Source: Microgenomates group bacterium Gr01-1014_7
Lineage (GTDB): Bacteria > Patescibacteriota > Microgenomatia > Daviesbacterales > UBA10151
Length of the DNA stretch: 64,000 nucleotides
NCBI GenBank assembly: GCA_007376405.1
Contig: VMGD01000001.1
Coordinates: 2,891-66,890 of the forward strand
Direction: 5' to 3'
Shown: positions 949 through 23,973 of the stretch, piece by piece
Numbering within the stretch: position 1 is the first letter of the stretch
Layout: each line of letters starts with the position of its first letter
Translations under genes and position numbers: made by a program
Notes under the pieces: generated by a model
What the model was told of the DNA's origin: nothing
Database searches by the model: none
Seen by the model: the letters and a program-made list of their open reading frames with translations, nothing else

Positions 949-977
949 CCCAACATAATACTTTACTGGCTTTCGTA

Positions 978-1006: not shown

Positions 1007-1012
1007 AACTCT

Positions 1013-2056
1013 ATGGAAGAAAAATTTGTAAGAATTTTCCCTAATAACGTTAAAAAATACCTCCGAAATTCAATGTTTGGTACTCAAAAAAATAAGGAGA
1101 TTGAGATTCCAGTTTTTGCACAGTTGAGAAATTTCTTAAGCCAAAGAAATATATACATAAATACTTATGATGTTTCCACAAAAAAGCCTCCTTATAGAAA
1201 TATCCACTTTGATTTACCTTATCCTTTTCCTTCAAACTTCCCTATTTGGAAAATAATCTTTTTAAATAGAAGGAAAAATATACTTATATGTACAGAGCCA
1301 CCAATGGTAAACCCTTTTAATTATATGAAAATATTTCATACTTTTTTTATAAAAGTTTATACTTGGAATGATGAGTTAGTAGATTATATAAAATATTTCA
1401 AAACTAATCTACCTAAATCTAGTTTAGGAATTAAGACTAAAGCTAAGAAATTTAAGGAGAAGAAGTTTTTAATCTTAATTAACAAAAACATCCTACCATT
1501 TTATCCGTTTAAAATATTTAAGCCTTTTGGTAAGGAGCTATATTCTGAAAGAATTAAGGCAATTGAGTTTTTCGAAGAAAATATTCCGGACAAGTTTTTT
1601 TTATATGGTAAAGGTTGGAATAAACCCAAAAAATATAATTTAAAGGAATCTATCTTTGGCTTCAAAAAATATTCAACTTATAAGGGGGAGGTTGGTAATA
1701 AAATTGAACTTTTATCCAATTTTAAATTTTGTATTTGTTTTGAAAATCTAACAGATATCAAAGGATACATTACTGAAAAGATATTTGACTGCTTTAAGGC
1801 CAGATGTGTTCCTATCTATTTGGGGGCTTCTAATATAGAAAAGTATATACCAAAAGGTTGCTTCGTCGATTTCAGGGATTTTGGCAACTATGAAGAGTTA
1901 CTTAACTTTCTTGCCTCGATTGATGAAAATAGATATAATTGCTACATTGAAAACATTGAAAGGTTGTTAGCAGACAAAAAATTTATTAATTTATGGTTTG
2001 AAGATGGCTTTTCAAAATTCTTTTTAGAAGATATTTTAGAAATTAAACAAGGCTAA
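1013..2056 (+). CDS. GT10-family alpha-1,3/4-fucosyltransferase-like glycosyltransferase
   Basis: C-terminal block FKFCICFENLTDIKGYITEKIFDCFKARCVPIYLGASNIEKYIP...FVDFRDF matches the conserved GT10 (FucT) donor-binding motifs (FENS...GY(V/I)TEK...IP(V/I)Y.G). Confidence 0.75.
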   Translation: MEEKFVRIFPNNVKKYLRNSMFGTQKNKEIEIPVFAQLRNFLSQRNIYINTYDVSTKKPPYRNIHFDLPYPFPSNFPIWKIIFLNRRKNILICTEPPMVNPFNYMKIFHTFFIKVYTWNDELVDYIKYFKTNLPKSSLGIKTKAKKFKEKKFLILINKNILPFYPFKIFKPFGKELYSERIKAIEFFEENIPDKFFLYGKGWNKPKKYNLKESIFGFKKYSTYKGEVGNKIELLSNFKFCICFENLTDIKGYITEKIFDCFKARCVPIYLGASNIEKYIPKGCFVDFRDFGNYEELLNFLASIDENRYNCYIENIERLLADKKFINLWFEDGFSKFFLEDILEIKQG

Positions 2057-2061
2057 ATAGC

Positions 2062-2089
2062 TTGCTTTAGGGCAATTATCTGATATAAT
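2062..2089 (+). promoter_or_regulatory. Candidate promoter TTGCTT-N16-TGaTATAAT, 8 nt upstream of the ATG at 2098 (leaderless-type), head of the long sugar operon
   Basis: An extended -10 (TGnTATAAT) at 2081-2089 and the ATG at 2098, with no Shine-Dalgarno. Confidence 0.35.
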
Positions 2090-2097
2090 TCCAAACT

Positions 2098-3090
2098 ATG
2101 TTTAAGAAAGTTTTAATAACTGGCATTACCGGTTTTGTTGGAAGCCACTTGGCGGAATATATTTTAAAAGAACATAAAGATACAAAGATTTATGGACTTG
2201 TAAGGTGGCGATCGCCAAAAGATAATATTTTAGGGATCATGGATCAAATTAATTTATGTTTAGGGGACTTAGAAGATTATAGTTCTTTAGAAAAAATACT
2301 CTCAGAAGTAAAACCTGATGTTATATTTCACCTTGCTGCTCAATCATATGTAGATTTTAGTTTTATTGCCCCAATATCAACTTTACAAGCAAATGTAATC
2401 GGTACAGCTAATTTGCTTGAATCCATTAAAAATCTTAAATTGCAAGAAAAATATGATCCGATTATTCATATTTGTAGTTCTTCTGAAGTTTATGGACAGG
2501 TCAAAGAAGATGAAATTCCAATCAAAGAAACAAATTCTTTTCGGCCAGCATCACCTTATGCTGTTTCTAAAGTTGGGGAGGATATGTTGGCCCTGCAATA
2601 CTTTTTATCCTGGAAAATAAAAACAATCAGAACAAGGATGTTTACTCATGAGGGACCAAGAAGAGGAGAAGTTTTTGCTCCTTCTAATTTTGCTAAACAA
2701 GTTGCTGCAATAGAAGCAGATAAACAAAAGCCTGTTGTGATGGTTGGAAATTTAAATAGTGTAAGAACCTTTATGGATGTGCGGGATGCTGTAAGCGCAT
2801 ATTGGTTGCTTGTAAATAAATGTACCCCGGGAGAGGTTTACAACATAGGCGGTGTAGAGACTATGACTATTGGGGATATGTTAAAAAAACTCATCAGTTT
2901 TTCCAAAAAGAAAAATATCAAAATAGAAGTAGATCCCAAACGCTTACGCCCCTCTGATGTTACTCTACAAATACCCTCAGTTAAGAAGTTTGTTCAACAA
3001 ACCAATTGGAAGCCAAACATAAAGTTTGATCAAACTTTAAAAGATATGCTGGATTACTGGAGAGATTATTATAAGAAAATTTATGAATAG
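2098..3090 (+). CDS. GDP-mannose 4,6-dehydratase / GDP-4-keto-6-deoxy-mannose reductase (Gmd/Rmd) family SDR
   Basis: ITGITGFVGSHL N-terminus, SSSEVYG catalytic block, THEGPRRGEVF, NLNSVRTFMDVRDAVSAYWLL and DPKRLRPSDV...NWKP align with Gmd/Rmd family signatures. Dehydratase versus reductase cannot be decided by eye. Confidence 0.8.
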   Translation: MFKKVLITGITGFVGSHLAEYILKEHKDTKIYGLVRWRSPKDNILGIMDQINLCLGDLEDYSSLEKILSEVKPDVIFHLAAQSYVDFSFIAPISTLQANVIGTANLLESIKNLKLQEKYDPIIHICSSSEVYGQVKEDEIPIKETNSFRPASPYAVSKVGEDMLALQYFLSWKIKTIRTRMFTHEGPRRGEVFAPSNFAKQVAAIEADKQKPVVMVGNLNSVRTFMDVRDAVSAYWLLVNKCTPGEVYNIGGVETMTIGDMLKKLISFSKKKNIKIEVDPKRLRPSDVTLQIPSVKKFVQQTNWKPNIKFDQTLKDMLDYWRDYYKKIYE

Positions 3091-4057
3091 AAAAAAAATA
3101 ATTTTAAATCTTTTTAAAAAAGCTTATTTAATAAGGACTACTGAGGAGTTAATCATTAAACACTATGATAATAATGAGATGAAAACACCAATGCATATGT
3201 CTATGGGGGAGGAAGCAATTATGGCTGGTGTTTGTACTGCACTGGGAAAAAACTCACAAACTTTTGGGACTTATAGAAGTCATGGTTTATACCTTGCAGT
3301 TACAGAAGAAACTGATAAATTTTTTGCCGAAATGTATGGTAAGGTAACAGGAGTTTTAAAAGGAAAAAGTGGTTCTATGCACCTTTTATCACCCAGTGAT
3401 GGCTTACTGGGGATTTCTGCGGTTGTTGGCAGTACTATACCTTTGGCAGTTGGTGCAGCATTTGCCAATATATACCTTAAAAAAAAGCAGATAACGACAG
3501 TCTTTTTTGGTGATGGTGCAGTTGATGAAGGCGTTTTTTGGGAAAGTTTAAACATTGCTTGTTCTAAAGGTCTTCCCGTACTTTTTGTTTGTGAAGATAA
3601 TGGTTATGCAGTACATACTCCTCTTTCAGCAAGGCGTGGATACAAAAGTTTAACCAATATAGTTAAACAATATTCCTGCTCTGTTTTTGAAACAGATTCT
3701 ACTGATGCGGAACAAATCTATAAACTTTCTTTAGAGGCTATTAATTCAATTCAAAAAAAACACCGACCAGCATTTTTACATCTGAAATACTATCGCTATT
3801 TGGAACATGTTGGTGTCCATGAAGATTTTCATGCAGGTTATCGAACTAAATTAGAATTTATGGAGTGGCAAAAAAAAGATCCGGTTAAGTTATTAAGAAA
3901 TAAATTAAAAGACGTAAAGGTGAAAGATATGGATATTATCGAACTTGAAGAACGTATTAACAAGCAAGTGGAAGAGAGTTTGCAGAAAGCGAAAAAGGCT
4001 CCATTCCCTGATCCTTCAGAACTTTTAAAAAATACATTTTATGAACAAACAGCTTAA
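3083..4057 (+). CDS. ThDP-dependent dehydrogenase E1 component, alpha subunit (pyruvate/acetoin dehydrogenase E1-alpha family)
   Basis: MSMGEEA...YRSHG...GSMHL...VFFGDGAVDEGVFWESLNIA...LFVCEDNGYA are E1-alpha ThDP-binding signatures. The gene overlaps the next gene by 17 nt. Confidence 0.85.
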   Translation: MNRKKIILNLFKKAYLIRTTEELIIKHYDNNEMKTPMHMSMGEEAIMAGVCTALGKNSQTFGTYRSHGLYLAVTEETDKFFAEMYGKVTGVLKGKSGSMHLLSPSDGLLGISAVVGSTIPLAVGAAFANIYLKKKQITTVFFGDGAVDEGVFWESLNIACSKGLPVLFVCEDNGYAVHTPLSARRGYKSLTNIVKQYSCSVFETDSTDAEQIYKLSLEAINSIQKKHRPAFLHLKYYRYLEHVGVHEDFHAGYRTKLEFMEWQKKDPVKLLRNKLKDVKVKDMDIIELEERINKQVEESLQKAKKAPFPDPSELLKNTFYEQTA

Positions 4058-5105
4058 ACTGGCAACAAAAAAAATTTCTTACCGGACTGCAATTAACCAA
4101 GCTCTTCACCAAGAAATGGAGCGAGATAACTCAATTTTCACATATGGAATTGATGTCGCAGACCATAAAAGAATATTTGGTTCAACAACGGGACTTCTAG
4201 AAACATTTGGTCCTCAACGTGTTTTCTCTACTCCACTTTCTGAAGAAGCACTGTTAGGCTTCGGCTTAGGAGCAGCTATAAATGGTTTACGACCAATTAA
4301 TGTCCACATTAGAGTTGATTTTCTGCTTTTAGCTATTAATCAACTTGTAAATATGGTTGCAAGTTATCACTACGGTTCAGATGGAAAATTACAAGTTCCT
4401 TTAGTTATCCGAGCAATTATCGGCAAAGGTTGGGGTCAATCGTACCAACATAGTAAAAGCTTACAATCATTTTTTGCTCACATCCCAGGATTGAAAGTAG
4501 TTATGCCGACTACACCGGCTGACGCTAAAGGATTGTTAATATCTGCTATAAGGGATAATAATCCTGTAGTAGTTTTAGAACATCGGATGCTTTACGACGT
4601 TGAAGATGAGGTACCTATTAAACCTATACCTACACCACTGGGTAAAGGACAAATCCTGAAAATAGGGACAGATATTACAATTATTGCTACTTCCTACTCT
4701 GTAGTTTCCGCAGTGCAAGCTGCTAAAGTTTTAGAAAAACAAGGTGTGAGTGTGGAAGTAGTTGATCCACGTTCTATCTTCCCTTTGGATGAAAATCTTA
4801 TTATAAAATCTGTTGAAAAAACCGGTCATTGTATTATTGCAGATTATGACTGGACTTTTTGCGGGTTTTCCGCTGAATTAGCTACCAGAATTTATGAAAA
4901 GTTATCTCACAAATTAAAATCTGAAGTAATGCGATTAGGATTTGCACCCACCCATTGTCCCAGTACAAGACCGTTAGAAAATGAATTTTATACAGACTCG
5001 ATTGATTTAATAAGGGCTGTTGAAAAAAAACTCAAGCTGAAGGAGATGGATTTATCACAAGAAACTTTTTATAGTTATGAAAATCAATTCAGGGGACCCT
5101 TTTGA
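4041..5105 (+). CDS. ThDP-dependent dehydrogenase E1 component, beta subunit (transketolase-like pyrimidine-binding plus C-terminal domain)
   Basis: E1-beta-like blocks: INQALHQEMERD...FGIDV...GLLETFGPQRVFSTPLSEEALLGFGLGAA...KVVMPTTPADAKGLL...VVVLEHRMLY. Translationally coupled to the flanking genes. Confidence 0.8.
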   Translation: MNKQLKLATKKISYRTAINQALHQEMERDNSIFTYGIDVADHKRIFGSTTGLLETFGPQRVFSTPLSEEALLGFGLGAAINGLRPINVHIRVDFLLLAINQLVNMVASYHYGSDGKLQVPLVIRAIIGKGWGQSYQHSKSLQSFFAHIPGLKVVMPTTPADAKGLLISAIRDNNPVVVLEHRMLYDVEDEVPIKPIPTPLGKGQILKIGTDITIIATSYSVVSAVQAAKVLEKQGVSVEVVDPRSIFPLDENLIIKSVEKTGHCIIADYDWTFCGFSAELATRIYEKLSHKLKSEVMRLGFAPTHCPSTRPLENEFYTDSIDLIRAVEKKLKLKEMDLSQETFYSYENQFRGPF

Positions 5106-5926
5106 TGCTAAAATTTCCACATCTTAAAGATGCAGCAAGAAAAATAAGGCTTAACTGCCTAAAGATGCAGCATATTGCTTATCAAGGACATTTAGGAGGA
5201 GCCTTTTCTGTAACTGAAATATTAGTTGCCCTTTATTACTGCGGTATTATTAATATTTCACCAAAAAATTTTAATGATCCAAAAAGAGATAGGATTATTT
5301 TTAGTAAAGGACACGCTTGTTTGTCCCTTTATGCTGTTCTAGCAGATAAGGGATTTTTTCCAAAAGCAGAATTAGAAAGATACGGTCAAAACGGCACTTT
5401 TTTGGGCGGTCACCCGGATCACTTGATACCTGGAGTAGAAGTATCTTCCGGATCTTTAGGTCACGGTCTAGGAATTGGCGCAGGCATGGCAATTGCCGCA
5501 AAATTAAACGATCAAAAGTATTTGACTTATGTCATTTTAGGGGATGGTGAGTGTACTGAAGGATCCATTTGGGAAGCAATTGCCTTTGCTGTTGTGCAAA
5601 ATCTTAACAATCTTATCGCAATTGTTGATAATAACCAAATCGCGGCAACTTCAAAAACGCAAAAGTTTGTTGGATCTTCTCTTTTAGAAAATAAATGGAA
5701 ATCTTTTGGCTGGGATACTTTATCAATAGATGGGAATAATATTTCGGAAATTATTAACGCGTTAAAAAAATCGAAAATGCATTCTACTAGTAAAAAACCG
5801 CTTGCAATTATAGCTAATACAATCAAAGGAAAAGGTGTGTTTTTTATGGAAGGTGATCCTAAATGGCATCACGGCGTTGCAAATGATACCCAGTATGAAC
5901 AGGCAAGAAAGGAGCTAAGTAAATGA
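5102..5926 (+). CDS. Transketolase, N-terminal (ThDP-binding) subunit of a split transketolase
   Basis: GHLGGAFSVTEILVALYY, FSKGHACLSLYAVLADKG, GSLGHGLGIGAGMA, VILGDGECTEGSIWEA are transketolase N-terminal domain motifs. The protein is 274 aa, typical of a split-form N subunit. Confidence 0.85.
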   Translation: MMLKFPHLKDAARKIRLNCLKMQHIAYQGHLGGAFSVTEILVALYYCGIINISPKNFNDPKRDRIIFSKGHACLSLYAVLADKGFFPKAELERYGQNGTFLGGHPDHLIPGVEVSSGSLGHGLGIGAGMAIAAKLNDQKYLTYVILGDGECTEGSIWEAIAFAVVQNLNNLIAIVDNNQIAATSKTQKFVGSSLLENKWKSFGWDTLSIDGNNISEIINALKKSKMHSTSKKPLAIIANTIKGKGVFFMEGDPKWHHGVANDTQYEQARKELSK

Positions 5927-6873
5927 ACAAAATAACCGCTCCGAAACGGAAATACCAGGATATGCGCGATGCCTTTTTTGAAGAGCTATTTCAGATTGCA
6001 TCTATAGACAGAGATGTAATACTTTTGATGGCTGACCAGGGGGCGCAGACTATGAAAAAATTTGAAGAAAAAATTCCTGATCAATTAATAAATGTAGGCA
6101 TAGCGGAGCAAAACATGATTTCCGTAGCTGCTGGACTAGCTTTGTGTGGGAAAAAAGTGTTTGTCCATGCTATTGCAAACTTCACTACACTAAGGTGTTA
6201 TGAGCAGATAAAAGTTGATCTTTCAATAATGAATTTACCCGTTACAATTGCTGGAGTCGGTGCAGGATTTACTTATGGAAGCGATGGACCAACACATCAC
6301 GCTAATCAGGATATTGCTGCAATGCGGGCAATCCCAGGAATAAGAATTTTAAACGCTTCTGATATTGTAAGCTTATCCGCTTTTCCTCACCTAGCATACC
6401 AAATTCCCAAGTTGACATATATCCGATTTGATAAAGGTAACTATATTGCCCTTTATAATAAAAATCATAATTTTCTAGATGGAATGTATGAGGTTGTAAA
6501 GGGAACAGATACGGTAATTATCTCTACAGGAATAATGGTTCATCAAGCTGTAAAAATTGCAAATCAGTTTAAATCGAAAGTTGGTGTAATTGATATCTAT
6601 CAACTTAAGCCATTAAATGAAGAAAAATTACATAAACTCCTCTCTTCTTATAAAAAAATCGTTGTTCTGGAAGAACATCTATCTTATGGTGGATTAGCAA
6701 CAATAGTGGCTGATATGCTGGCAGATTACTCTTTAAATAAAGGCTTTTTAAGGATTGGCTTACCGGATGAAAATATCTTTATTTATGGGGATAGAAATTA
6801 TATGCACAAGCAAATTGGAATATCTTACCCTCAAATTATTAAAAAAATTGACAAATTCCTGAAAGATAAATGA
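5923..6873 (+). CDS. Transketolase, C-terminal subunit of a split transketolase
   Basis: Transketolase pyrimidine-binding and C-terminal domain pattern: LINVGIAEQNMISVAAGLALCGKKVFVHA...GSDGPTHHANQDIAAMRAIPG. The ATGA overlap with the upstream N subunit indicates coupled translation. Confidence 0.8.
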   Translation: MNKITAPKRKYQDMRDAFFEELFQIASIDRDVILLMADQGAQTMKKFEEKIPDQLINVGIAEQNMISVAAGLALCGKKVFVHAIANFTTLRCYEQIKVDLSIMNLPVTIAGVGAGFTYGSDGPTHHANQDIAAMRAIPGIRILNASDIVSLSAFPHLAYQIPKLTYIRFDKGNYIALYNKNHNFLDGMYEVVKGTDTVIISTGIMVHQAVKIANQFKSKVGVIDIYQLKPLNEEKLHKLLSSYKKIVVLEEHLSYGGLATIVADMLADYSLNKGFLRIGLPDENIFIYGDRNYMHKQIGISYPQIIKKIDKFLKDK

Positions 6874-7808
6874 ACAATAAAAAAACTTTTAATTTAACAT
6901 CGAAATCATTTGCTAAAATTTTTAACACAAAGGAGGATACTCTTCCACTTATTGCCAAACAAGCAATCAAAAAAGCAAATTTTAAATACAAAAAAGTTGA
7001 AAATAAAGAATATGATGAAGCTATTTTAAGAATAATCAGAACTCTAGATTCAAGAATCTTAAAAGCTGCTGGACCTCACAGGCAAATTGACTGGGAGAAG
7101 GGCTGGGAAGAAAATTTACAGGAATTTATCCGAGGTAAACGTGATTTAAATCAACTAATCCCAAAATTTGTAAAGAAAGGTGCATACATTAGGTTCCAGG
7201 GTAACTTTATCAAACCTGAAAGTGATTTATTCGAAACAGATTTTGTAACTGTATTGAGGTATTACCTTTTTAGTAAGTATTACAAAAATACAGATACACT
7301 TTATGAATTTGGTGTAGGATCAGGGTTAAATTTAGTAGCAGCATCAGAAATTTTTCCTGAAATGAAATTGGTAGGTCTGGATTGGGCAAGCTCATCTGTA
7401 GAAATTCTAAATTCTTTAAAACAAAAATTGAAAATAAATATTTCCGGAAAAAGAATGGATTTTTTTAATCCGGATGGAGAATATCGCCTTAATAAAGACT
7501 CTGCAATTCTGACTATTGGTACATTAGAGCAATTAGGAGAAAATTTTAAACCCTTTATAAACTACTTACTGAAAAATAAACCCAAAGTTTGTATCCATAT
7601 AGAAACACTTTATGAAGTTTACGATCAGAGCAATTTATTGGATTATTTAGCAATAAAATACTTGGAAAAAAGAAATTACTTAAGGGGTTTTTTACCCTAT
7701 TTAAAAAATCTCGAAGCAAAAAAGAAAATAAGAATACTTGAAATGAGGAGAACTTTTGGTTCTTTTTACCATGAGGGGTATACTTATACAGTTTGGAGAC
7801 CAATTTAG
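6870..7808 (+). CDS. Hypothetical protein, possibly a class I SAM-dependent methyltransferase fold
   Basis: A long ORF coupled to the transketolase genes. EFGVGSGLNL followed by LVGLDWASSSVEIL resembles methyltransferase motif I and post-I, but the match is weak. Confidence 0.4.
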   Translation: MNNKKTFNLTSKSFAKIFNTKEDTLPLIAKQAIKKANFKYKKVENKEYDEAILRIIRTLDSRILKAAGPHRQIDWEKGWEENLQEFIRGKRDLNQLIPKFVKKGAYIRFQGNFIKPESDLFETDFVTVLRYYLFSKYYKNTDTLYEFGVGSGLNLVAASEIFPEMKLVGLDWASSSVEILNSLKQKLKINISGKRMDFFNPDGEYRLNKDSAILTIGTLEQLGENFKPFINYLLKNKPKVCIHIETLYEVYDQSNLLDYLAIKYLEKRNYLRGFLPYLKNLEAKKKIRILEMRRTFGSFYHEGYTYTVWRPI

Positions 7809-7811
7809 CAA

Positions 7812-8780
7812 ATGAGCAATTTTTATAAAAGAAAAAAGGTTTTGGTAGCAGGCGGTACAGGAATGATTGGAATCTGTATGGTAAATAAACTTTTACAATA
7901 TGGTTGCGAAATCACCATTGCATCCTTAGAATCAAAAGAGTACGCAGAAAAATTATTTGGGAAAAAAGTTAGATTTATCCAAACTGATTTAACAGATTTT
8001 GAAAACTGTCTGAAAGTTACCAAGAAACAAGAGTTAGTTTTTAATCTTGTAGGAATTAAAGGATCCGTCGGTATAGGACAAACAAAAATAGCCAGCTTTT
8101 TAGTACCAATGCTTCGTTTTCAGACTAATTTAATGGACGCATCATTTAAAAATGAGGCAAAAGGTTTTCTGTTTGCCAGCAGTATTTGTGCATACCCACA
8201 ATCTGATAAACCTAAAACTGAGGATAGTGTTTGGGATGGACAACCGAAACAAAATGATCGCATCCCAGGTTTAGCCAAAAGAATTGGTGAGGTTCAAGGT
8301 GAGGCATATCTACATGAATTTGGTTGGAAGGCAGTCAAAATTGTCCGACCCTCTAATGTTTTCGGACCCTTTGACGATTTTAATCCAAATACAGCCCAAA
8401 TTATTCCAGCTTTAATTGCCAGGATGGTTGGCAGAGAAAATCCAGTGAAAGTTTGGGGGGATGGTTCTGCTATCAGAGATTTTATTTTTGTAGAAGATGT
8501 GGCAGATGGGATGCTTTTGGCGATGGAAAAAGCAAATCCTGCAGATCCACTTAATGTAGGGTCTGGTAAAGGAATAACTATAAAACAAATCGCTGAAACA
8601 ATCGCCAAAAATGTTCCTCAAAAACCTGAAATTGAATGGGATAAAACAAAACCCACCGGTGATCCATTCAGAATACTCTCTATGCAAAAAACAAAGAAGA
8701 TATTAAAATTTACACCAAAGTATACTCTAGAGGATGGAATTAAAAAAACTATTGGCTGGTACTTAAAAAATCGAGTATGA
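7812..8780 (+). CDS. GDP-L-fucose synthase-like (Fcl/WcaG family) NAD(P)-dependent epimerase/reductase, paralog 1
   Basis: VLVAGGTGMIG Rossmann motif, a SSICAYPQ catalytic region, and IVRPSNVFGPFDDFNPNTAQIIPALI...VWGDGSAIRDFIFVEDVADG align with the Fcl family ([21 protein letters not shown]...VWGSG...REFLHVDD). Confidence 0.8.
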   Translation: MSNFYKRKKVLVAGGTGMIGICMVNKLLQYGCEITIASLESKEYAEKLFGKKVRFIQTDLTDFENCLKVTKKQELVFNLVGIKGSVGIGQTKIASFLVPMLRFQTNLMDASFKNEAKGFLFASSICAYPQSDKPKTEDSVWDGQPKQNDRIPGLAKRIGEVQGEAYLHEFGWKAVKIVRPSNVFGPFDDFNPNTAQIIPALIARMVGRENPVKVWGDGSAIRDFIFVEDVADGMLLAMEKANPADPLNVGSGKGITIKQIAETIAKNVPQKPEIEWDKTKPTGDPFRILSMQKTKKILKFTPKYTLEDGIKKTIGWYLKNRV

Positions 8781-9208
8781 AAAATCCGAAAACTAACAAC
8801 CAAAGAGAATTTTTACCAACTTTTGCTGACTTAGTTGATACTCTTTCCATTGATCAGATCAAAGAGATTAAACTGAAAAATAAAGAAAGCTACGCTCAAG
8901 AAATGAACAAGATCTCGTATGATATTGATTTACTTATTAAAGAAAAGGATATCAAACCGTCTGCGAAACTGATCAGACTAGTAATTATAATTGCTCAAGT
9001 GAATCTTTTTATTTGGGAAAACAAGGATAAAATGAAACAAGATCCGAAACAATATGATAAGTTACTAAAATTATCCCATCAGTTAAATGGAATAAGAAAT
9101 AGAATGAAAAATCTATTACTTGAAGAAAGTGGCGAAAAAGAACCGAGCAAAAAAAGAACCAATATTGAAACTGAAGGTTTAAAAGGTTGGGAAAGCTCAC
9201 TTAAATGA
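8777..9208 (+). CDS. Hypothetical protein (143 aa, charged, probably helical)
   Basis: The ORF is translationally coupled on both sides (ATGA overlaps). I recognise no motif. Confidence 0.5.
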   Translation: MKNPKTNNQREFLPTFADLVDTLSIDQIKEIKLKNKESYAQEMNKISYDIDLLIKEKDIKPSAKLIRLVIIIAQVNLFIWENKDKMKQDPKQYDKLLKLSHQLNGIRNRMKNLLLEESGEKEPSKKRTNIETEGLKGWESSLK

Positions 9209-10311
9209 TCTTCCAAAAACTTGGTTCCTCTCAGACTACCGTTTCAGTGTTAGGTTTGGGGACTAATGGTGTTGGTAATTTTTATCAGCCAAACTTAACC
9301 AAGGTTCGTTCCCGACAAAAAATATATAAGACTGCTTTTGAAAACGGTCTGATCTTATTTGACAGTGCCGAGCTATATGGAGAGGGATACGCTGAATTTA
9401 TTTTGGGAAAGACTTTTTCTAGAAAAAGAGACCAAATAATTATTTCAACCAAAGTTAATCCTGATAATTGCAGTTCTTTTAGGTTAAGAAAATCCCTCAA
9501 AGATAGCCTTAAGCGGTTGCAGACAGATTATATAGATCTCTACCAGGTTCACTGGATTAACCCTTTTATTGATCTTGAAGAAACTTTTATTACTTTGGAG
9601 CAGTTTGTAAAAGAAGGCTACATTAAACATATTGGAGTCTGTAACTTTTCTCCATTAATGATCTCTCAAGCTAATAAGTTTTTAAATAAATATAAGATTG
9701 TTTCTAATCAGATTGAGTTTAACCTCCAAAGCCAATATCAAATGCTTAAAGATTTTCAATTTTATAAAAAAAACAATATTACTATTATTGGCTATGGTGC
9801 CTTAAATCATCTTAACTCATTCTCATCCCCAAAGCAGAAACAGCTTATGGAGTTTTTAACTAAAAAATATAAAAAAACTCTTTCCCAATTAATAATCAAC
9901 TATCTTACCTCTTTTAAAAATACTATCCAACTTATAAAAACAGATAATATTACCCATTTACAGGAAAATATTAGATCATTTGATTTTGAATTGGAAAAAA
10001 AAGATTTTGAAGAAATTAAAACAAATTTTTATTATCAAGTTCAGTTTGTCCCAGTTAAAAAAATTAAAATTGAAAACGAATTAAAAATTGACCGTTTCCA
10101 AATCCTACAAAATAGTGAAAACTTTATTCCCTCTCCCCTAACTATAGCTCAAACTCTTGTTAAATATGGTTTTTTTAAACCTTTGAAGTTAATAAAGAAA
10201 AACGATTTTTTTTATCTTGATTCTTATGATTTACAGGGGGAATATAAAAAATACCTGGCATGGAGATTAATTTATGATATATCAAGTCAAATTCCAGCAA
10301 TAGTTATCTAA
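9205..10311 (+). CDS. Aldo/keto reductase (AKR) with a ~95-aa C-terminal extension
   Basis: LGLGTNGVGNFY, FDSAELYGEGYAEFILG, IDLYQVHW and GYIKHIGVCNFS are canonical AKR motifs. It carries an extra C-terminal region shared with the downstream paralog (FFPSP...IPAIV). Confidence 0.85.
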   Translation: MIFQKLGSSQTTVSVLGLGTNGVGNFYQPNLTKVRSRQKIYKTAFENGLILFDSAELYGEGYAEFILGKTFSRKRDQIIISTKVNPDNCSSFRLRKSLKDSLKRLQTDYIDLYQVHWINPFIDLEETFITLEQFVKEGYIKHIGVCNFSPLMISQANKFLNKYKIVSNQIEFNLQSQYQMLKDFQFYKKNNITIIGYGALNHLNSFSSPKQKQLMEFLTKKYKKTLSQLIINYLTSFKNTIQLIKTDNITHLQENIRSFDFELEKKDFEEIKTNFYYQVQFVPVKKIKIENELKIDRFQILQNSENFIPSPLTIAQTLVKYGFFKPLKLIKKNDFFYLDSYDLQGEYKKYLAWRLIYDISSQIPAIVI

Positions 10312-10312
10312 A

Positions 10313-11422
10313 ATGAAATATAAAAATTTAGGGGGTACTAATGTAAAAATAAGCAGTATTGGTTTAGGTACAAATTTTAATCCCTACCATCCCGATACTA
10401 ATCAGAAATTAATCTCTCTTATGCAAGAAGCCTTAAATTTGGGTCTAAATTTTTTTGATTCGTCCGAACTTTATCTTAATGGAAACTCAGAAAAATTAAT
10501 AGGTCAGGCATTTAAAAAAAGAAGAGGTGAAGTCTTTATCTCCACCAAATTCTCTCCAGAAAATTGCAGTTACGAGAGGGTGGTTAAGTCTTGTGAAGCC
10601 AGTTTAAAAAGATTACAGACTGATTACATTGATTTATATCAAATCCACTGGCCAAATCCCATTATTCCTATTGAGCAAACTCTAAAAGCTTTAGAAAAAT
10701 TAAGAAAAGTTGGGAAAGTAAAATACATTGGCGTGTGCAATTTTTCTCTTAGACAATTAAAGCATATCCAAAAAGTATCTAAATTACCTATTGTCTCTTT
10801 GCAAACAGAATATAATTTACTTGAACGATCAATAGAATACGACCTACTCCCCTATTGCGAAAAAAATAAAATTACAATTATTGCCTATACACCTCTAAAT
10901 TCAGGTAATATTTTAAAAACAGAAAAATATTTAAAGATATTTTCAGATCTGTCTAAAAAATATAATAGAACTGCCTCCCAAATAATATTAAACTTTTTAA
11001 TATCCCACCCCACCGTTGTTGTTATACCTGCAACAGCCAACATCATTCATTTAGAGGAAAATGCAAAGTCTACTGAGTTTGTGCTGGAAAAAAAAGACAT
11101 TCAACTTCTCACAAAAACATTTACTACAAAAGTAATAAATATAGATACCGGAAAAATTAAGGTTACAACTATTCCCCACCATGCTGCATATAAAACAATT
11201 GAAGAAGCCTTAACAAATAAGTTAAACTTTTTTCCAAGTCCAAAGACACTTTCGGAAGATATCCAAAAAGGAGATTTTTTAAAGCCTGTTAGGGTAAAAG
11301 TTTTACAAAAAAAGAAAGGTGATTTTGAATATGAATTATTAGGTGGTAGAATACGCTATTGGGCATGGGTTATAGCTTACCATGGTAAAAAACCCATACC
11401 CGCTATAGTTGAAAATTCATAA
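10313..11422 (+). CDS. Aldo/keto reductase (AKR) with the same C-terminal extension, paralog 2
   Basis: IGLGTNFN, FDSSELYLNGNSEKLIG, IDLYQIHW, KYIGVCNFS, with a C-terminal FFPSPKTL...KKPIPAIVENS tail. Confidence 0.85.
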   Translation: MKYKNLGGTNVKISSIGLGTNFNPYHPDTNQKLISLMQEALNLGLNFFDSSELYLNGNSEKLIGQAFKKRRGEVFISTKFSPENCSYERVVKSCEASLKRLQTDYIDLYQIHWPNPIIPIEQTLKALEKLRKVGKVKYIGVCNFSLRQLKHIQKVSKLPIVSLQTEYNLLERSIEYDLLPYCEKNKITIIAYTPLNSGNILKTEKYLKIFSDLSKKYNRTASQIILNFLISHPTVVVIPATANIIHLEENAKSTEFVLEKKDIQLLTKTFTTKVINIDTGKIKVTTIPHHAAYKTIEEALTNKLNFFPSPKTLSEDIQKGDFLKPVRVKVLQKKKGDFEYELLGGRIRYWAWVIAYHGKKPIPAIVENS

Positions 11423-12184
11423 ATGCCAAAAAAAGATTTAACTAAAATTAAAGTATATAACAGTGAGCATGAAACCAAGATTAGACAACAAATTGTTGAT
11501 CTTTTAAAAAGTTGTCCTATTCCTGACGATCAATTGATGTCTAATTTAGGTCTATTTTTAAATTCTAAAAATTTATCCCGTATACTTTTTGTGGACCATA
11601 TCTTCAAACAAATTGTGGATATCCCTGGGGCTGTCTTTGAGTTTGGTACAAGATGGGGACAAAATATAGCACTCTTTTCAGCACTTCGGGGAACCTATGA
11701 CCCGTTTAACAGACACAGAAAAATTGTCGGATTTGATACCTTTACGGGTTTCCCGGAAATTAGCCCAAAAGATGGGGATTCAGAGATGATGCAAAAAGGA
11801 AATTTAACTTTAACAAAAAACTACTTTGAATATTTAACAAAAATTATGGAATACCATGAGCAAGAAAACCCGCTATCCCATATCAAAAAATATGAACTAA
11901 TAAAAGGAGATGTTAATTTAGAAGTTGTTAGATATTTCAAAAAACACCCAGAAACAATTGTGGCTTTGGCTTTTTTTGATTTTGATATTTATAAACCTAC
12001 AAAAAAATGTTTAGAGGCTATTAAACCACATTTAGTAAAGGGAAGTATTTTAGGTTTTGATGAACTAAATGATCCTGATTCGCCTGGTGAAACTTTGGCT
12101 TTAGATGAAGTTTTTGGGTTAAATAACATAAGGTTAAAAAGGTATAAGTTTACTTCACGTACATCATATTTTGTCGTTGAATGA
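11423..12184 (+). CDS. TylF/macrocin-O-methyltransferase-family SAM-dependent sugar O-methyltransferase
   Basis: GAVFEFGTRWGQN, IVGFDTFTGFP and ALAFFDFDIYKPTKKCLEAIKPHLVKGSILGFDE resemble the TylF-family signatures (VECGV..GGS; D.F.G.P; LDGDLYEST...GG.V..DD). Confidence 0.55.
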   Translation: MPKKDLTKIKVYNSEHETKIRQQIVDLLKSCPIPDDQLMSNLGLFLNSKNLSRILFVDHIFKQIVDIPGAVFEFGTRWGQNIALFSALRGTYDPFNRHRKIVGFDTFTGFPEISPKDGDSEMMQKGNLTLTKNYFEYLTKIMEYHEQENPLSHIKKYELIKGDVNLEVVRYFKKHPETIVALAFFDFDIYKPTKKCLEAIKPHLVKGSILGFDELNDPDSPGETLALDEVFGLNNIRLKRYKFTSRTSYFVVE

Positions 12185-12752
12185 ACTAGATAAAAAAATG
12201 GCTAAATTCTTTAAAACAAAATTAGAAGGTGTTTTACTTATTAAGCCTGAACCCTTTGAAGATTTTCGTGGAGAATATGTTGAAACATTTAATGAAAAAA
12301 TTTACTCTGAAGAAATTGCCAAGAATTTAAAAGGAACTATTTATCAAAAAGAAGCTTCAAGTTTGCATTTTGTTGAAGATGATATCTCAACCGGTAGTAA
12401 GGGTGTAATAAAAGGGATACATGGAGATACCAAAACCTGGAAACTGGTTCAATGTTTATTTGGAAAATTTTATCTGGTTGTATTAAATTACAACCCAAAA
12501 TCTAAAGATTATGGTAAGTGGGAAGCATTTACACTCTCAGACAAAAATAGACTTCAGGTTTTAATTCCGCCAATGTATGGTAATGGACATTTTGTCTTAT
12601 CTGAATATGATATATACCACTATAAACAGACTCCATACTACGATCCGGATAATCAATTTACTATTAAATGGGATGATCCAAGGTTTAAGATTTGGTGGCC
12701 AATAAAAAATCCAATACTATCATTAAGAGATGAAACCGTCAGAAGAGTGTAA
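12171..12752 (+). CDS. RmlC-like cupin: NDP-4-keto-6-deoxy-sugar 3,5- (or 3-/5-) epimerase
   Basis: KLEGVLLIKPEPFEDFRGEYVETF plus downstream histidine- and tyrosine-containing blocks (GIHGDT...LIPPMYGNGHFVLSE) fit the dTDP-4-dehydrorhamnose 3,5-epimerase fold. This matches RmlC and the C. jejuni DdahB/MlghB family. Confidence 0.7.
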   Translation: MSLNELDKKMAKFFKTKLEGVLLIKPEPFEDFRGEYVETFNEKIYSEEIAKNLKGTIYQKEASSLHFVEDDISTGSKGVIKGIHGDTKTWKLVQCLFGKFYLVVLNYNPKSKDYGKWEAFTLSDKNRLQVLIPPMYGNGHFVLSEYDIYHYKQTPYYDPDNQFTIKWDDPRFKIWWPIKNPILSLRDETVRRV

Positions 12753-13717
12753 TGAACCAATTTTTTGAAAAGAAAAAAGTACTGGTAGCAGGTGGTGCTG
12801 GTTTTATGGGTACTAACTTAATTTTAAAACTTCTTGAAAAAGGAGTAAAGGTTAGAGCAACAATCCATAAAAAACCTCCTCAAATTAAAAATTCAGAAAC
12901 TGAATTTGTAAAAGCTGACTTGACTAAACCATCTGATTGTAAAAAAGCTGTTGAAGGGGTTGATTATGTGTTTATGTGTGCTGCTAATACTTCAGGTGCA
13001 GCAGTAATTGAAAAAACTCCCCTTGCGCATGTGACCCCAAATGTAATCATGAATTCTTTAATGCTCGAAGCAGCTCATAAGGCAGGCGTTAAAAAATTTC
13101 TATTTATCTCAAGTAATACGGTTTACCCTTTAACAAATTACGCGGTTAAAGAAGATGATGTAAATTATGCTCTTTACGAGAAATACTTCCCGGTTGGGTG
13201 GATGAAGCTATTTAGCGAAAAAATGTGTGAAATGTACTCTACCAAAATTAAAAACTCAATGACAACCATAGTTGTAAGACCCGGCAACGTATATGGCCCT
13301 TATGATGATTTTGACTGGGAGAGTTCACATGTAATTCCTGCCCTAATTAGAAAAGCAGTAGAAAGACACAGCCCGTTAGAAGTGTGGGGTACAGGTTATG
13401 ATATTAAGGATTTTATTTATGTGGAAGACTTGGTAGAAGGACTAATTTTAGCAATGGAAAAAATTAACCAATTTGACCAAATTAATATTGGTGGAGGGGT
13501 ACCTATCACCATAAGACAAGTTTTAAAAGCAATTCTAAAAGCGGATAATTTTAGAAGCCCAAAAATTGTTTTTAACAGCTCAAAACCTACTATGATTCCT
13601 ATCCGATTAATTAATATAAATAAGGCTAGGAGGATTCTAGGCTTTACACCTAAAACTTCTTTAAAGATGGGTATCAAAAAAACAGTAGATTGGTATAAAT
13701 CATTAAGAAATGTCTAA
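12752..13717 (+). CDS. Fcl-like NAD(P)-dependent epimerase/reductase, paralog 2
   Basis: VLVAGGAGFMG, FISSNTVYP and VVRPGNVYGPYDDFDWESSHVIPALI...VWGTGYDIKDFIYVEDL show clear paralogy to the 7812-8780 gene product. Confidence 0.8.
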   Translation: MNQFFEKKKVLVAGGAGFMGTNLILKLLEKGVKVRATIHKKPPQIKNSETEFVKADLTKPSDCKKAVEGVDYVFMCAANTSGAAVIEKTPLAHVTPNVIMNSLMLEAAHKAGVKKFLFISSNTVYPLTNYAVKEDDVNYALYEKYFPVGWMKLFSEKMCEMYSTKIKNSMTTIVVRPGNVYGPYDDFDWESSHVIPALIRKAVERHSPLEVWGTGYDIKDFIYVEDLVEGLILAMEKINQFDQINIGGGVPITIRQVLKAILKADNFRSPKIVFNSSKPTMIPIRLININKARRILGFTPKTSLKMGIKKTVDWYKSLRNV

Positions 13718-23972: not shown

Positions 23973-23973
23973 C

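What the first reader, a model, noticed from the sequence alone, without database searches (positions are those of the whole stretch)
3083..6873. Two ThDP-dependent enzyme pairs (E1 alpha/beta and a split transketolase) translationally coupled inside a nucleotide-sugar operon
Four consecutive, overlapping genes encode a pyruvate/acetoin-dehydrogenase E1 alpha and beta pair and a split transketolase (N and C subunits). They sit between a Gmd/Rmd-like and an Fcl-like GDP-sugar enzyme. No E2 or E3 genes are present, so this is not a conventional dehydrogenase complex.

From established knowledge, stand-alone E1 alpha/beta pairs (AviB1/AviB2 in avilamycin) and ThDP-dependent YerE (yersiniose) attach two-carbon branches to NDP-4-keto sugars.

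By inference, this locus could build a C-branched or chain-extended sugar, possibly on a heptose scaffold. A second, more mundane hypothesis is that the transketolase pair supplies sedoheptulose-7-phosphate to the GmhA/HddA heptose pathway encoded 7 kb downstream. Either way the organisation is unusual.
Basis: partly seen in the sequence, partly recalled or inferred. Interest (0 to 1): 0.8.

Follow-up and report, generated by a model that had tools for sequence, protein, structure and literature searches.

The report
Thiamine-enzyme cassette for branched GDP-heptose
A groundwater candidate-phyla bacterium carries, inside a large cell-surface glycan island, two thiamine-dependent carbon-carbon bond-forming enzymes (a lone E1 alpha/beta pair and an atypical split transketolase) wired to a GDP-heptose pathway, which most likely builds an undescribed carbon-branched heptose that many uncultured bacteria and archaea also seem able to make.

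Summary
Four intact, overlapping genes at 3083-6873 encode E1 alpha, E1 beta and a split transketolase (TK-N, TK-C). No E2 or E3 homologue occurs in the window or in 88 related loci.

The source is the MAG "Microgenomates group bacterium Gr01-1014_7". The gene upstream is best matched by the Campylobacter jejuni GDP-heptose 4,6-dehydratase, and GmhA, HddA, GmhB and HddC lie downstream.

The E1 pair belongs to a discrete family. Its motifs were found in 185 species genomes, spanning CPR, Omnitrophota, Planctomycetota, Chloroflexota, Nitrospira, Heliobacterium mobile and archaea. It almost always sits next to that dehydratase and the heptose genes.

The transketolase pair is an optional module, present in 30 of 61 loci. 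It travels with an aldo-keto reductase and a TylF-like methyltransferase. Its pocket for sugar-phosphate binding is altered (His461 to Gly, Arg520 to Lys, Ser385 lost), so it is unlikely to be a housekeeping transketolase.

Best reading: the E1 pair adds a two-carbon branch from pyruvate to GDP-4-keto-6-deoxyheptose, and the transketolase adds a second two-carbon unit. No activity has been shown. This is a new variant of a known kind.

The parts
1013..2056 (+). GT10 (fucosyltransferase-like) glycosyltransferase. It is a candidate transferase for the GDP-activated 6-deoxy/branched heptose.
   Evidence: Pfam Glyco_transf_10, E=1.2e-15. It is conserved at this position in the Levybacteria and Daviesbacteria loci. 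The role is inferred.
2098..3090 (+). GDP-heptose 4,6-dehydratase (DmhA-like). It makes the GDP-6-deoxy-4-keto-heptose acceptor.
   Evidence: Best PDB match is 7US5, C. jejuni GDP-D-glycero-D-manno-heptose 4,6-dehydratase, at 303 bits, E=2.5e-89. It overlaps the E1 alpha start by 8 nt. A homologue (at least 45% identity) is present in 62 of 77 related loci.
3083..4057 (+). E1 alpha-type ThDP subunit (alpha-KADH2 superfamily), proposed keto-sugar C-acetyl branching enzyme.
   Evidence: Pfam E1_dh, E=1.7e-50. NCBIfam PDH E1 alpha scores 253 bits against a cutoff of 394, so the cutoff is not reached. The family-specific motifs TPMHMSMG and YYRYLEHV were found in 185 species genomes.
4041..5105 (+). 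E1 beta-type subunit, partner of E1 alpha.
   Evidence: Pfam Transket_pyr plus Transketolase_C. Human PDH E1 beta scores 219 bits. NCBIfam scores 295 bits against a cutoff of 321. It lies directly downstream of E1 alpha in 72 of 72 loci.
5105..5926 (+). Split transketolase, N-terminal (ThDP/PP-domain) subunit.
   Evidence: Pfam Transketolase_N, E=5e-39. Best PDB match is the C. hydrogenoformans split-TK N chain 6YAK, 210 bits. His26, His66 and His100 (E. coli numbering) are retained.
5923..6873 (+). Split transketolase, C-terminal (Pyr plus C domain) subunit of a non-canonical clade.
   Evidence: It scores only 123 bits to the canonical split-TK C chain 6YAJ. In E. coli numbering, His461 is Gly, Arg520 is Lys and Ser385 is Gln, while Arg358, Glu411, Asp469 and His473 are kept. 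All 150 best library representatives have Gly or Cys at position 461.
6870..7808 (+). Class I SAM-dependent methyltransferase-like protein with an N-terminal domain; substrate unknown.
   Evidence: The AF2 model has pLDDT 95.5. Foldseek matches natural-product O- and C-methyltransferases (DnrK, MppJ/SgvM, CurJ). It is fused to TK-C in L054 (647-aa ORF) and in several library representatives. It also occurs in loci without the transketolase.
7812..8780 (+). GDP-fucose-synthase-like SDR (SDR_a).
   Evidence: Pfam Epimerase. PDB GDP-L-fucose synthases score 118-131 bits. In related loci it is always followed by the 143-aa protein.
8777..9208 (+). Conserved 143-aa helical-bundle protein of unknown function.
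   Evidence: It has no Pfam or NCBIfam hit. There are 331 homologues with about 27 invariant, mostly polar, residues. The AF2 model is a helical bundle with pLDDT 74.7 and has no significant PDB fold match.
9205..11422 (+). Two tandem aldo-keto reductases (9205-10311 and 10313-11422), proposed side-chain ketoreductases.
   Evidence: Pfam Aldo_ket_red, E=5e-54 and 7e-65. They are 40% identical paralogues with a shared C-terminal extension of about 100 aa. An AKR co-occurs with the transketolase in 17 of 30 loci and is found in 3 of 31 loci without it. [quoted passage not shown]
11423..12184 (+). TylF/Methyltransf_24-like methyltransferase (253 aa).
   Evidence: The Pfam hits are weak: TylF E=0.002 and Methyltransf_24 E=0.001. 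It is strongly linked to the transketolase module, present in 20 of 30 loci with it and 1 of 31 without it.
12198..12752 (+). RmlC-like GDP-4-keto-heptose 3- or 3,5-epimerase.
   Evidence: Best PDB matches are C. jejuni GDP-D-glycero-4-keto-D-lyxo-heptose 3,5- and 3-epimerases (8DB5, 8DCO, 7M14, 8DCL), 111-115 bits.
12752..13717 (+). GDP-fucose-synthase-like SDR (SDR_b), probable C4 or side-chain reductase.
13710..14968 (+). HddC-like heptose-1-phosphate guanylyltransferase (13710-14426) and GmhB-like phosphatase (14423-14968).
   Evidence: NCBIfam HddC scores 162 bits (cutoff 300, not reached). GmhB scores 172 bits (cutoff 178).
14946..17619 (-). SDR_c (14946-15968), HddA-like heptose-7-phosphate kinase (15965-16972) and GmhA sedoheptulose-7-phosphate isomerase (16963-17619).
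   Evidence: NCBIfam HddA scores 151 bits (cutoff 600, not reached). GmhA scores 200 bits (cutoff 276). SDR_c is GDP-fucose-synthase-like.

Best explanation
The four genes are two ThDP-dependent carboligases that tailor a GDP-activated heptose for a cell-surface glycan.

Steps supported by homology:
1. GmhA, HddA, GmhB and HddC make GDP-D-glycero-alpha-D-manno-heptose.
2. The dehydratase at 2098-3090 converts it to GDP-6-deoxy-4-keto-heptose.
3. The RmlC-like epimerase may act on that intermediate.

Steps inferred by analogy and gene context:
4. The E1 alpha/beta heterotetramer decarboxylates pyruvate. It adds the ThDP-bound hydroxyethyl carbanion to the sugar's keto group. This gives a C-acetyl branch and a tertiary alcohol, as proposed for AviB1/AviB2 and Pau11/Pau12, supported for the aldgamycin enzyme by feeding and gene-knockout experiments, and demonstrated in vitro on ketone substrates for KbDH alpha/beta.
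5. The split transketolase has an altered sugar-phosphate pocket. It transfers a second two-carbon unit (glycolaldehyde, from hydroxypyruvate or a ketose) to another carbonyl of the same intermediate. The most likely target is the new side-chain ketone or a ring ketone.
6. The aldo-keto reductases and SDRs reduce the resulting ketones, and the two methyltransferases decorate the product.
7. A GDP-sugar glycosyltransferase, perhaps the adjacent GT10, installs the sugar in the glycan built by the rest of the island.
For: - The domains and catalytic motifs are intact.
- The genes are translationally coupled from the dehydratase through to the methyltransferase.
- The dehydratase and epimerase are best matched by characterised C. 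jejuni GDP-heptose enzymes. All three SDRs resemble GDP-fucose synthase.
- The whole cassette is syntenic in Levybacteria and Daviesbacteria.
- Across 80 loci from many phyla, E1 beta follows E1 alpha in 72 of 72. The dehydratase is present in 62 of 77. Heptose-activation genes are present in 44 of 61.
- No AceF or Lpd homologue occurs in 1.58 Mb of such loci.
- The NCBIfam PDH E1 cutoffs are not reached.
- The transketolase is a modular add-on, present in 30 of 61 loci. It is placed after E1 beta and is linked to the AKR (17/30 against 3/31) and the TylF-like methyltransferase (20/30 against 1/31). It is fused to the 312-aa methyltransferase in some genomes.
- TK-C has Gly for His461 in 31 of 32 cassette copies and in 149 of the 150 nearest library representatives (the remaining one has Cys). 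It has Lys for Arg520 and no Ser/Thr at position 385. The characterised split transketolase 6YAJ keeps all of these.
- Literature precedents exist. E1-type (alpha-KADH2) enzymes and split-gene transketolases are the two non-YerE ThDP superfamilies proposed to branch keto-sugars (PMC12247030). An AKR, Pau7, reduces the acetyl branch (PMC4753412).
Against: - No activity or product is known for any member of this cassette.
- Ketone-accepting transketolase activity has never been shown in vitro for any enzyme (PMC12247030).
- A 4-keto sugar can be branched only once at C4, so the transketolase's acceptor carbonyl is unidentified.
- The catalytic His residues used by true E1 enzymes for lipoyl acylation are retained, so sequence alone does not exclude dehydrogenase chemistry.
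- The HddA, HddC, GmhA and GmhB matches fall below the NCBIfam equivalog cutoffs.
- The RmlC-like epimerase and the 4-reductase-like SDRs would also suffice for an unbranched 6-deoxyheptose, so part of the locus may serve a parallel product.
- The locus survey was anchored on E1 alpha. It therefore cannot show whether this transketolase clade needs the E1 pair.
Confidence: 0.6

Rival explanations
1. The two enzymes work on parallel branches. The E1 pair and the transketolase each act separately on GDP-6-deoxy-4-keto-heptose. This gives two alternative singly branched sugars (4-C-acetyl and 4-C-hydroxyacetyl) that are reduced and methylated separately.
For: - Only one carbonyl, C4, is demonstrably generated by the encoded dehydratase.
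- The transketolase module brings its own reductase and methyltransferase (AKR and the 253-aa methyltransferase), like a self-contained sub-pathway.
- The window has two AKRs and three SDRs.
Against: - The tight translational coupling E1 beta/TK-N/TK-C/methyltransferase fits one assembly line better. So does insertion of the transketolase, and sometimes a YerE-like enzyme, directly after E1 beta.
- Some loci hold three different ThDP enzymes in a row, which would then require three parallel products.
Confidence: 0.22
2. The transketolase is a housekeeping or supply enzyme. The split transketolase is an ordinary pentose-phosphate enzyme that provides sedoheptulose-7-phosphate for the GmhA/HddA heptose pathway, and only the E1 pair tailors the sugar.
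For: - CPR genomes are small and often encode split transketolases.
- TK-N is clearly related to a characterised split transketolase (6YAK, 210 bits).
- The core catalytic residues are intact.
- Whether the MAG has another transketolase was not determined.
Against: - The transketolase is absent from half of the E1/heptose loci (31 of 61), many of which carry heptose-activation genes.
- It lies among the tailoring genes, 7-10 kb from GmhA/HddA.
- It co-varies with the AKR and the O-methyltransferase.
- It is fused to a methyltransferase in some genomes.
- His461, Arg520 and Ser385 of the phosphate-binding site are replaced throughout the clade.
- TK-C scores only 123 bits to canonical TK-C, against 187-469 bits to 150 clade representatives.
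- It occurs in large genomes such as Desulfobacterium (7.85 Mb), Nitrospira and Heliobacterium. These are expected to have their own transketolase, although this was not checked.
Confidence: 0.06
3. The E1 pair is a catabolic or central-metabolic enzyme. It is the E1 of a pyruvate or acetoin dehydrogenase system whose E2 and E3 are encoded elsewhere, and it sits in the glycan island by chance.
For: - The best family-level matches are PDH E1 alpha and beta.
- Automated annotations call relatives 'acetoin:DCPIP oxidoreductase' or 'pyruvate dehydrogenase E1'.
- The active-site His residues are conserved.
Against: - The curated PDH E1 cutoffs are not reached.
- The pair is adjacent to, or overlaps, a GDP-heptose dehydratase across many phyla, including archaea. 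No E2 or E3 occurs in 1.58 Mb of flanks.
- The family motifs were found in only 185 of 185,579 species genomes, a patchy distribution unlike a housekeeping enzyme.
Confidence: 0.03

Closest known systems
alpha-KADH2-type sugar-branching E1 pairs of actinomycete antibiotics: AviB1/AviB2 (avilamycin), Pau11/Pau12 (paulomycin), the aldgamycin enzyme, and KbDH alpha/beta (kibdelomycin)
   Same: - It is a stand-alone E1 alpha/beta pair without E2 or E3.
- It is encoded next to an NDP-sugar 4,6-dehydratase and ketoreductases.
- The proposed chemistry is pyruvate-derived C2 (acetyl) addition to a keto-sugar.
- An AKR lies nearby, like Pau7 (PMC12247030, PMC4753412).
   Different: - The scaffold here is a GDP-heptose rather than a dTDP-deoxyhexose.
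- The setting is a cell-envelope glycan island rather than an antibiotic cluster.
- The hosts are CPR bacteria, many other uncultured phyla and archaea rather than actinomycetes.
- It is combined with a second, and in relatives a third, ThDP enzyme.
- The sequence relationship to AviB1 or KbDH was not tested.
Split-gene transketolases proposed for hydroxyacetyl branching in miharamycin and amipurimycin biosynthesis
   Same: - The genes are split into N and C subunits.
- They lie in a sugar-tailoring cluster.
- A keto-sugar is the proposed acceptor (PMC12247030).
   Different: - According to the 2025 review, the 13 known candidates are all from Streptomyces and none has been characterised.
- This one is in a GDP-heptose glycan locus in many phyla.
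- It belongs to a large clade with Gly at His461.
- Orthology with the Streptomyces enzymes was not tested.
Canonical transketolase, including the characterised split enzyme of Carboxydothermus hydrogenoformans (PDB 6YAK/6YAJ)
   Same: - The fold, the ThDP motif and the catalytic His and Glu residues are shared.
- The organisation is a heteromeric N plus C pair.
   Different: - The phosphate-binding residues are changed: His461 to Gly, Arg520 to Lys, and Ser385 lost.
- TK-C is only weakly similar (123 bits).
- Its distribution is not that of a housekeeping gene.
YerE/ErwE-type (decarboxylase-superfamily) branching enzymes of LPS sugars such as yersiniose and erwiniose
   Same: - They perform ThDP-dependent acyl branching of an NDP-4-keto sugar destined for a surface polysaccharide.
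- Relatives of this cassette (L005/L006, L020, L021, L045, L074 and others) carry a YerE-like 575-aa enzyme between E1 beta and TK-N.
   Different: - The window itself has no YerE-like gene.
- YerE acts on CDP-3,6-dideoxy-4-keto-hexose and is a single-chain enzyme of a different superfamily.
Campylobacter jejuni capsule GDP-heptose modification pathways (4,6-dehydratase, 3-/3,5-epimerases, C4 reductases)
   Same: - The heptose activation genes, dehydratase, RmlC-like epimerase and Fcl-like reductases are shared.
- The best PDB matches of the dehydratase and epimerase are the C. jejuni enzymes.
   Different: - To my knowledge (from memory, not checked here), the C. jejuni pathways contain no ThDP enzyme and yield unbranched heptoses.
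- Here, carboligases are inserted directly after the dehydratase.

Membership tests
2-oxoacid (pyruvate/acetoin/BCKA) dehydrogenase complex E1 alpha2beta2 | E1_dh alpha subunit plus Transket_pyr/Transketolase_C beta subunit, with a ThDP motif and active-site His residues | tested here: met
   Pfam domains are present. The alignments to BCKDH and PDH E1 show the GDG...N motif, the alpha His (YRYLEH) and the beta QHS His.
2-oxoacid (pyruvate/acetoin/BCKA) dehydrogenase complex E1 alpha2beta2 | Reaches the curated equivalog score of PDH E1 alpha/beta | tested here: not met
   TIGR03182 scores 253 bits against a cutoff of 394. NF006667 scores 295 bits against a cutoff of 321.
2-oxoacid (pyruvate/acetoin/BCKA) dehydrogenase complex E1 alpha2beta2 | Genomic association with E2 (lipoyl acyltransferase) and E3 (lipoamide dehydrogenase) | tested here: not met
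   None is found in the 64-kb window or up to the contig end. tblastn with AceF and Lpd gave no hit in the window plus 88 loci. E2 or E3 elsewhere in the genome is not excluded.
2-oxoacid (pyruvate/acetoin/BCKA) dehydrogenase complex E1 alpha2beta2 | Reductive acylation of lipoyl-E2 | not testable with these tools
   This needs an enzyme assay.
alpha-KADH2 sugar C-branching enzymes (AviB1/B2-like) | Stand-alone E1 alpha/beta pair next to an NDP-sugar 4,6-dehydratase that supplies a keto-sugar | tested here: met
   The E1 alpha start overlaps the heptose dehydratase by 8 nt. The dehydratase is present in 62 of 77 related loci.
alpha-KADH2 sugar C-branching enzymes (AviB1/B2-like) | Ketoreductase for the acetyl branch in the cluster (for example AKR Pau7) | tested here: inconclusive
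   Two AKRs and three SDRs are present. However, the AKR tracks the transketolase module rather than the E1 core. Orthology to Pau7 was not tested.
alpha-KADH2 sugar C-branching enzymes (AviB1/B2-like) | Sequence clustering with AviB1/AviB2, Pau11/12 or KbDH rather than with PDH/AcoAB | not tested
   The reference sequences were not obtainable with the tools. This is a lead from the literature only (PMC12247030, PMC4753412).
alpha-KADH2 sugar C-branching enzymes (AviB1/B2-like) | Pyruvate-dependent acetyl transfer to a keto-sugar | not testable with these tools
   This needs an enzyme assay.
Canonical transketolase (EC 2.2.1.1) | Transketolase N, Pyr and C domains with a ThDP motif and catalytic His26/His66/His100/Glu411/His473 | tested here: met
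Canonical transketolase (EC 2.2.1.1) | Sugar-phosphate binding residues Arg358, Ser385, His461 and Arg520 (E. coli numbering) | tested here: not met
   Only Arg358 is kept. His461 is Gly (31 of 32 cassette copies; 149 of 150 nearest representatives, the other being Cys). Arg520 is Lys (30 of 32). Position 385 is never Ser/Thr in the 32 cassette copies and is Ser/Thr in only 4 of the 150 representatives. The canonical split transketolase 6YAJ keeps all of these.
Canonical transketolase (EC 2.2.1.1) | Housekeeping-like distribution | tested here: not met
   It is present in 30 of 61 E1/heptose loci and is linked to tailoring genes. Whether the MAG has another transketolase was not tested.
Split-gene transketolases of keto-sugar branching (miharamycin/amipurimycin type) | Split N/C genes inside a sugar-tailoring cluster that generates a keto-sugar | tested here: met
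Split-gene transketolases of keto-sugar branching (miharamycin/amipurimycin type) | Sequence relationship to the Streptomyces enzymes; hydroxyacetyl transfer to a ketone | not tested
The review states that the activity has not been shown for any member (PMC12247030).
GDP-D-glycero-alpha-D-manno-heptose pathway (GmhA-HddA-GmhB-HddC) | All four enzyme types encoded together | tested here: met
   The best NCBIfam hit of each is the expected enzyme. All four scores are below the equivalog cutoffs (HddC 162/300, HddA 151/600, GmhB 172/178, GmhA 200/276), so the assignment is at family level plus context.

The most novel reading that the evidence does not exclude
A widespread and so far undescribed class of multiply carbon-branched, higher-carbon (C9 to C11 or more) heptose-derived sugars decorates the cell surfaces of CPR bacteria, DPANN/Thermoplasmata archaea, Omnitrophota, Planctomycetota, Chloroflexota and others. 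These sugars are assembled on GDP-heptose by two or three ThDP carboligases of different superfamilies acting in sequence (E1 alpha/beta, sometimes YerE-like, then a Gly461-type split transketolase). This would give the first physiological, non-actinomycete role for a ketone-accepting transketolase.
Probability: 0.35. Interest if true: 0.85.

Novelty: new variant of a known kind. Interest (0 to 1): 0.7.

Why it matters
- A 2025 review assigns E1-type (alpha-KADH2) and split-transketolase sugar-branching enzymes mainly to antibiotic pathways. It notes that all candidate branching transketolases come from Streptomyces and that none has been characterised (PMC12247030).
- This cassette moves both enzyme types into primary cell-envelope glycan synthesis, on a GDP-heptose scaffold.
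- It is found across many uncultured bacterial phyla and some archaea. It also occurs in one cultured carrier, Heliobacterium mobile DSM 6151, where the sugar could be looked for.
- If confirmed, it would predict a new family of branched heptoses on the surfaces of episymbiotic CPR cells, where surface glycans may mediate host attachment.
- It would also provide soluble, small ThDP carboligases that accept ketones. Such enzymes are sought for making chiral tertiary alcohols.
- Finally, it would define a large transketolase-like clade (at least 150 clusters at 50% identity) whose substrate is not a sugar phosphate.

Tried and rejected
- tRNA and Rfam scans of the window found nothing.
- The promoter/terminator scan of 1-18000 found no more sites than shuffled sequence, so it did not define the operon ends.
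- E1 catalytic residues were checked as a discriminator between dehydrogenase and carboligase function. Both the alpha and beta active-site His residues are conserved, so the check is uninformative.
- The first MAFFT alignment of the concatenated transketolase to E. coli TktA misaligned the linker region (positions 261 and 358-385). It was redone on the C-terminal half with the C. hydrogenoformans chain as an anchor.
- The 143-aa protein has no family hit. Its AF2 helical-bundle model has no significant PDB match, so its function remains unknown.
- The 312-aa protein could only be assigned to SAM methyltransferases in general (TM about 0.42), not to O- or C-methylation.
- Literature searches for transketolase or E1 together with GDP-heptose, capsule or caryophyllose found no description of this cassette. 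My recollection that the M. marinum caryophyllose locus uses E1 plus transketolase was not borne out. The review names a YerE-like enzyme, MMAR_2332, instead.
- Krug et al. 2024 (Angew. Chem., doi 10.1002/anie.202403535), the genome-mining study most likely to overlap, is not in the library.

Full report
**Observation**

The window is low in G+C (about 32%). It comes from a 144.8-kb metagenomic contig, ENA ERZ27284378 k139_581057. NCBI names the source "Microgenomates group bacterium Gr01-1014_7", with proteins TSC88510 to TSC88514.

ORFs at 3083-4057, 4041-5105, 5102/5105-5926 and 5923-6873 are intact. Their domains are E1_dh, Transket_pyr plus Transketolase_C, Transketolase_N, and Transket_pyr plus Transketolase_C respectively.

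The junctions overlap by 8, 17, 1 (or 4) and 4 nt. The next gene also starts within an ATGA overlap. The description 'four consecutive, overlapping genes' is therefore correct.

The flanks need one correction. Directly downstream is a 312-aa methyltransferase-like gene, and the Fcl-like SDR follows it.

No E2 or E3 is present in the 64-kb window or in the 2.9 kb up to the contig end. The rest of the window is a glycan island. It encodes GT2, GT4 and GT-C enzymes, a flippase, sugar C-methyltransferases, FdtA and a UDP-glucose dehydrogenase.

**The scaffold is a GDP-heptose**

The upstream SDR's best solved relative is the C. jejuni GDP-D-glycero-D-manno-heptose 4,6-dehydratase (7US5, 303 bits). 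GDP-mannose dehydratases score about 140 bits.

The RmlC-like protein is best matched by C. jejuni GDP-4-keto-heptose 3- and 3,5-epimerases. The three further SDRs resemble GDP-fucose synthase.

HddC, GmhB, HddA and GmhA homologues lie at 13710-17619. Each hits the expected NCBIfam model best, although all score below the equivalog cutoffs.

**Conservation**

The closest E1 alpha relatives (80-91% identity) are in Levybacteria and Daviesbacteria MAGs. There the whole cassette is syntenic: dehydratase, E1 alpha, E1 beta, TK-N, TK-C, 312-aa protein, SDR, 145-aa protein, AKR, 253-aa protein, RmlC, SDR, HddC.

A scan of 185,579 species genomes used two motifs that are invariant in this family, TPMHMSMG and YYRYLEHV. 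It found 185 species with a relative. The 80 best loci come from the following groups:
- CPR lineages, Omnitrophota, Planctomycetota and Chloroflexota/Dehalococcoidia;
- Desulfobacterota, Nitrospira, Betaproteobacteria and Magnetococcales;
- the cultured Heliobacterium mobile DSM 6151;
- Thermoplasmata and Nanoarchaeota.

I annotated these loci by tblastn with the window's proteins. The results were:
- E1 beta follows E1 alpha in 72 of 72 loci.
- A heptose-type dehydratase is present in 62 of 77 loci.
- GDP-heptose activation genes are present in 44 of 61 loci that have at least 8 kb downstream.
- AceF and Lpd queries found nothing in 1.58 Mb.

The E1 pair also fails the curated PDH E1 cutoffs. 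This is not a dehydrogenase complex. It is a stand-alone E1 pair dedicated to a GDP-keto-heptose context.

**The transketolase**

The transketolase pair is present in 30 of 61 loci, normally directly after E1 beta. It co-varies with the following genes:
- the 253-aa TylF-like methyltransferase (20 of 30 loci with the pair, 1 of 31 without);
- an AKR (17 of 30 against 3 of 31);
- a YerE-like ThDP enzyme inserted between E1 beta and TK-N (7 of 30 against 1 of 31).

TK-N is clearly transketolase-like (6YAK, 210 bits). TK-C is divergent (6YAJ, 123 bits).

I aligned 32 cassette TK-C subunits with E. coli TktA and the C. hydrogenoformans chain. The cofactor and catalytic residues Arg358, Asp381, Glu411, Asp469 and His473 are kept. 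The sugar-phosphate site is altered. His461 is Gly in 31 of 32. Arg520 is Lys in 30 of 32. Position 385 is never Ser or Thr.

An exhaustive search of 1.84 billion cluster representatives returned 150 best hits at 187-469 bits. All 150 have Gly (149) or Cys (1) at position 461. This is therefore a large non-canonical clade.

In several genomes TK-C is fused to the 312-aa protein. These facts argue against a sedoheptulose-7-phosphate supply role.

**Accessory proteins**

- The 312-aa protein models with high confidence (pLDDT 95.5) as a class I SAM methyltransferase of the natural-product type.
- The 253-aa protein is weakly TylF-like.
- The 143-aa protein is a conserved helical bundle with no detectable relatives of known function.
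- The two AKRs are 40% identical paralogues with a shared C-terminal extension.

**Mechanism**

A 2025 review recognises three ThDP superfamilies that branch keto-sugars (PMC12247030):
- YerE-like enzymes, which act on LPS sugars.
- E1-type alpha-KADH2 enzymes, which add a C2 branch from pyruvate in antibiotic pathways. KbDH alpha/beta has been shown in vitro to act on ketones.
- Split-gene transketolases, which have been proposed but never characterised. All 13 candidates are from Streptomyces.

Pau7, an AKR, reduces the acetyl branch of paulomycose (PMC4753412).

By analogy, I infer the following sequence:
1. The E1 pair adds an acetyl branch to GDP-6-deoxy-4-keto-heptose.
2. The transketolase adds a second C2 unit to another carbonyl.
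3. AKRs and SDRs reduce the ketones, and the methyltransferases decorate the product.
4. A GDP-sugar glycosyltransferase, possibly the adjacent GT10, transfers the sugar.

The heptose steps rest on homology. Everything from the E1 reaction onward is inference. The transketolase's acceptor is unknown. A parallel-pathway arrangement, with two singly branched sugars, remains a serious rival.

**Comparison and novelty**

The chemistry belongs to a known kind, ThDP-dependent C-branching of NDP-keto sugars. The following aspects were not described in anything I could find:
- the GDP-heptose scaffold;
- the cell-envelope glycan setting;
- the very broad distribution, mostly in uncultured organisms;
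- the stacking of two or three ThDP superfamilies in one operon;
- the Gly461 transketolase clade.

One possibly overlapping genome-mining paper could not be read. I rate the finding a new variant of a known kind, with interest 0.7.

Noticed in passing
L005/L006 11989-13716 and 19951-20880; also L020, L021, L032, L045, L074, L078, L085: More distant versions of the cassette carry a third ThDP enzyme between E1 beta and TK-N. It is a 575-aa YerE/acetolactate-synthase-like protein. L005/L006 also encode a strong PanB-like ketopantoate hydroxymethyltransferase (306 bits), which could make a hydroxylated 2-oxoacid donor for it.
   Followed up: partly
window 8777-9208: This is a 143-aa protein with about 27 invariant, mostly polar, residues and 331 homologues. 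In related loci it always follows the Fcl-like SDR_a. It is predicted to be a helical bundle and has no family or fold match.
   Followed up: yes
L054 12909-14852; representatives P0245, P0251, P0372, P0373: In some Planctomycetota and Chloroflexota genomes, TK-C is fused in one ORF (about 640 aa) to the 312-aa SAM-methyltransferase-like protein. This points to a functional link between the two.
   Followed up: partly
L079 (Heliobacterium mobile DSM 6151, NZ_WNKU01000013.1) 3411-13658: A cultured organism carries E1 alpha/beta, the transketolase pair, SDR_a, the 143-aa protein homologue and two AKRs. It also carries a 626-aa B12-binding radical SAM protein (9488-11368) inside the cassette. No dehydratase is seen in the 3.4 kb available upstream, where the contig ends.
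   Followed up: partly
window 22725-24360 (-) and 35768-37090 (-): The same island has further branched-sugar genes. Two are NDP-sugar C-methyltransferase-like proteins (PF08421/PF08484, 415 and about 430-440 aa). One of them lies next to an FdtA-like 3,4-ketoisomerase (23974-24360).
   Followed up: no
window 24381-26360, 29007-30662, 31642-33411, 33971-35767, 41785-43707: Five large ORFs (551-659 aa) inside the glycan island have no Pfam hit in the precomputed annotation.
   Followed up: no
window 17656-19878, 48894-50621, 55655-58850: Several GT-C-type membrane glycosyltransferases are present: one AftD-like and three PMT_2-like. They suggest extracytoplasmic glycan or protein glycosylation in this CPR organism.
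   Followed up: no
window 9205-11422: The window has two tandem AKR paralogues (40% identity), each with a conserved C-terminal extension of about 100 aa that is absent from solved AKRs. The Levybacteria locus L002 and the Daviesbacteria loci L003/L004 have one AKR, whereas the Levybacteria locus L011 has both.
   Followed up: partly
L012, L014, L020, L031 record titles: Several MAG records that carry CPR-like versions of the cassette are titled 'uncultured Gammaproteobacteria'. L012 shares a contig with a protein NCBI assigns to Daviesbacteria. The taxonomic labels of these binned assemblies therefore look unreliable.
   Followed up: no
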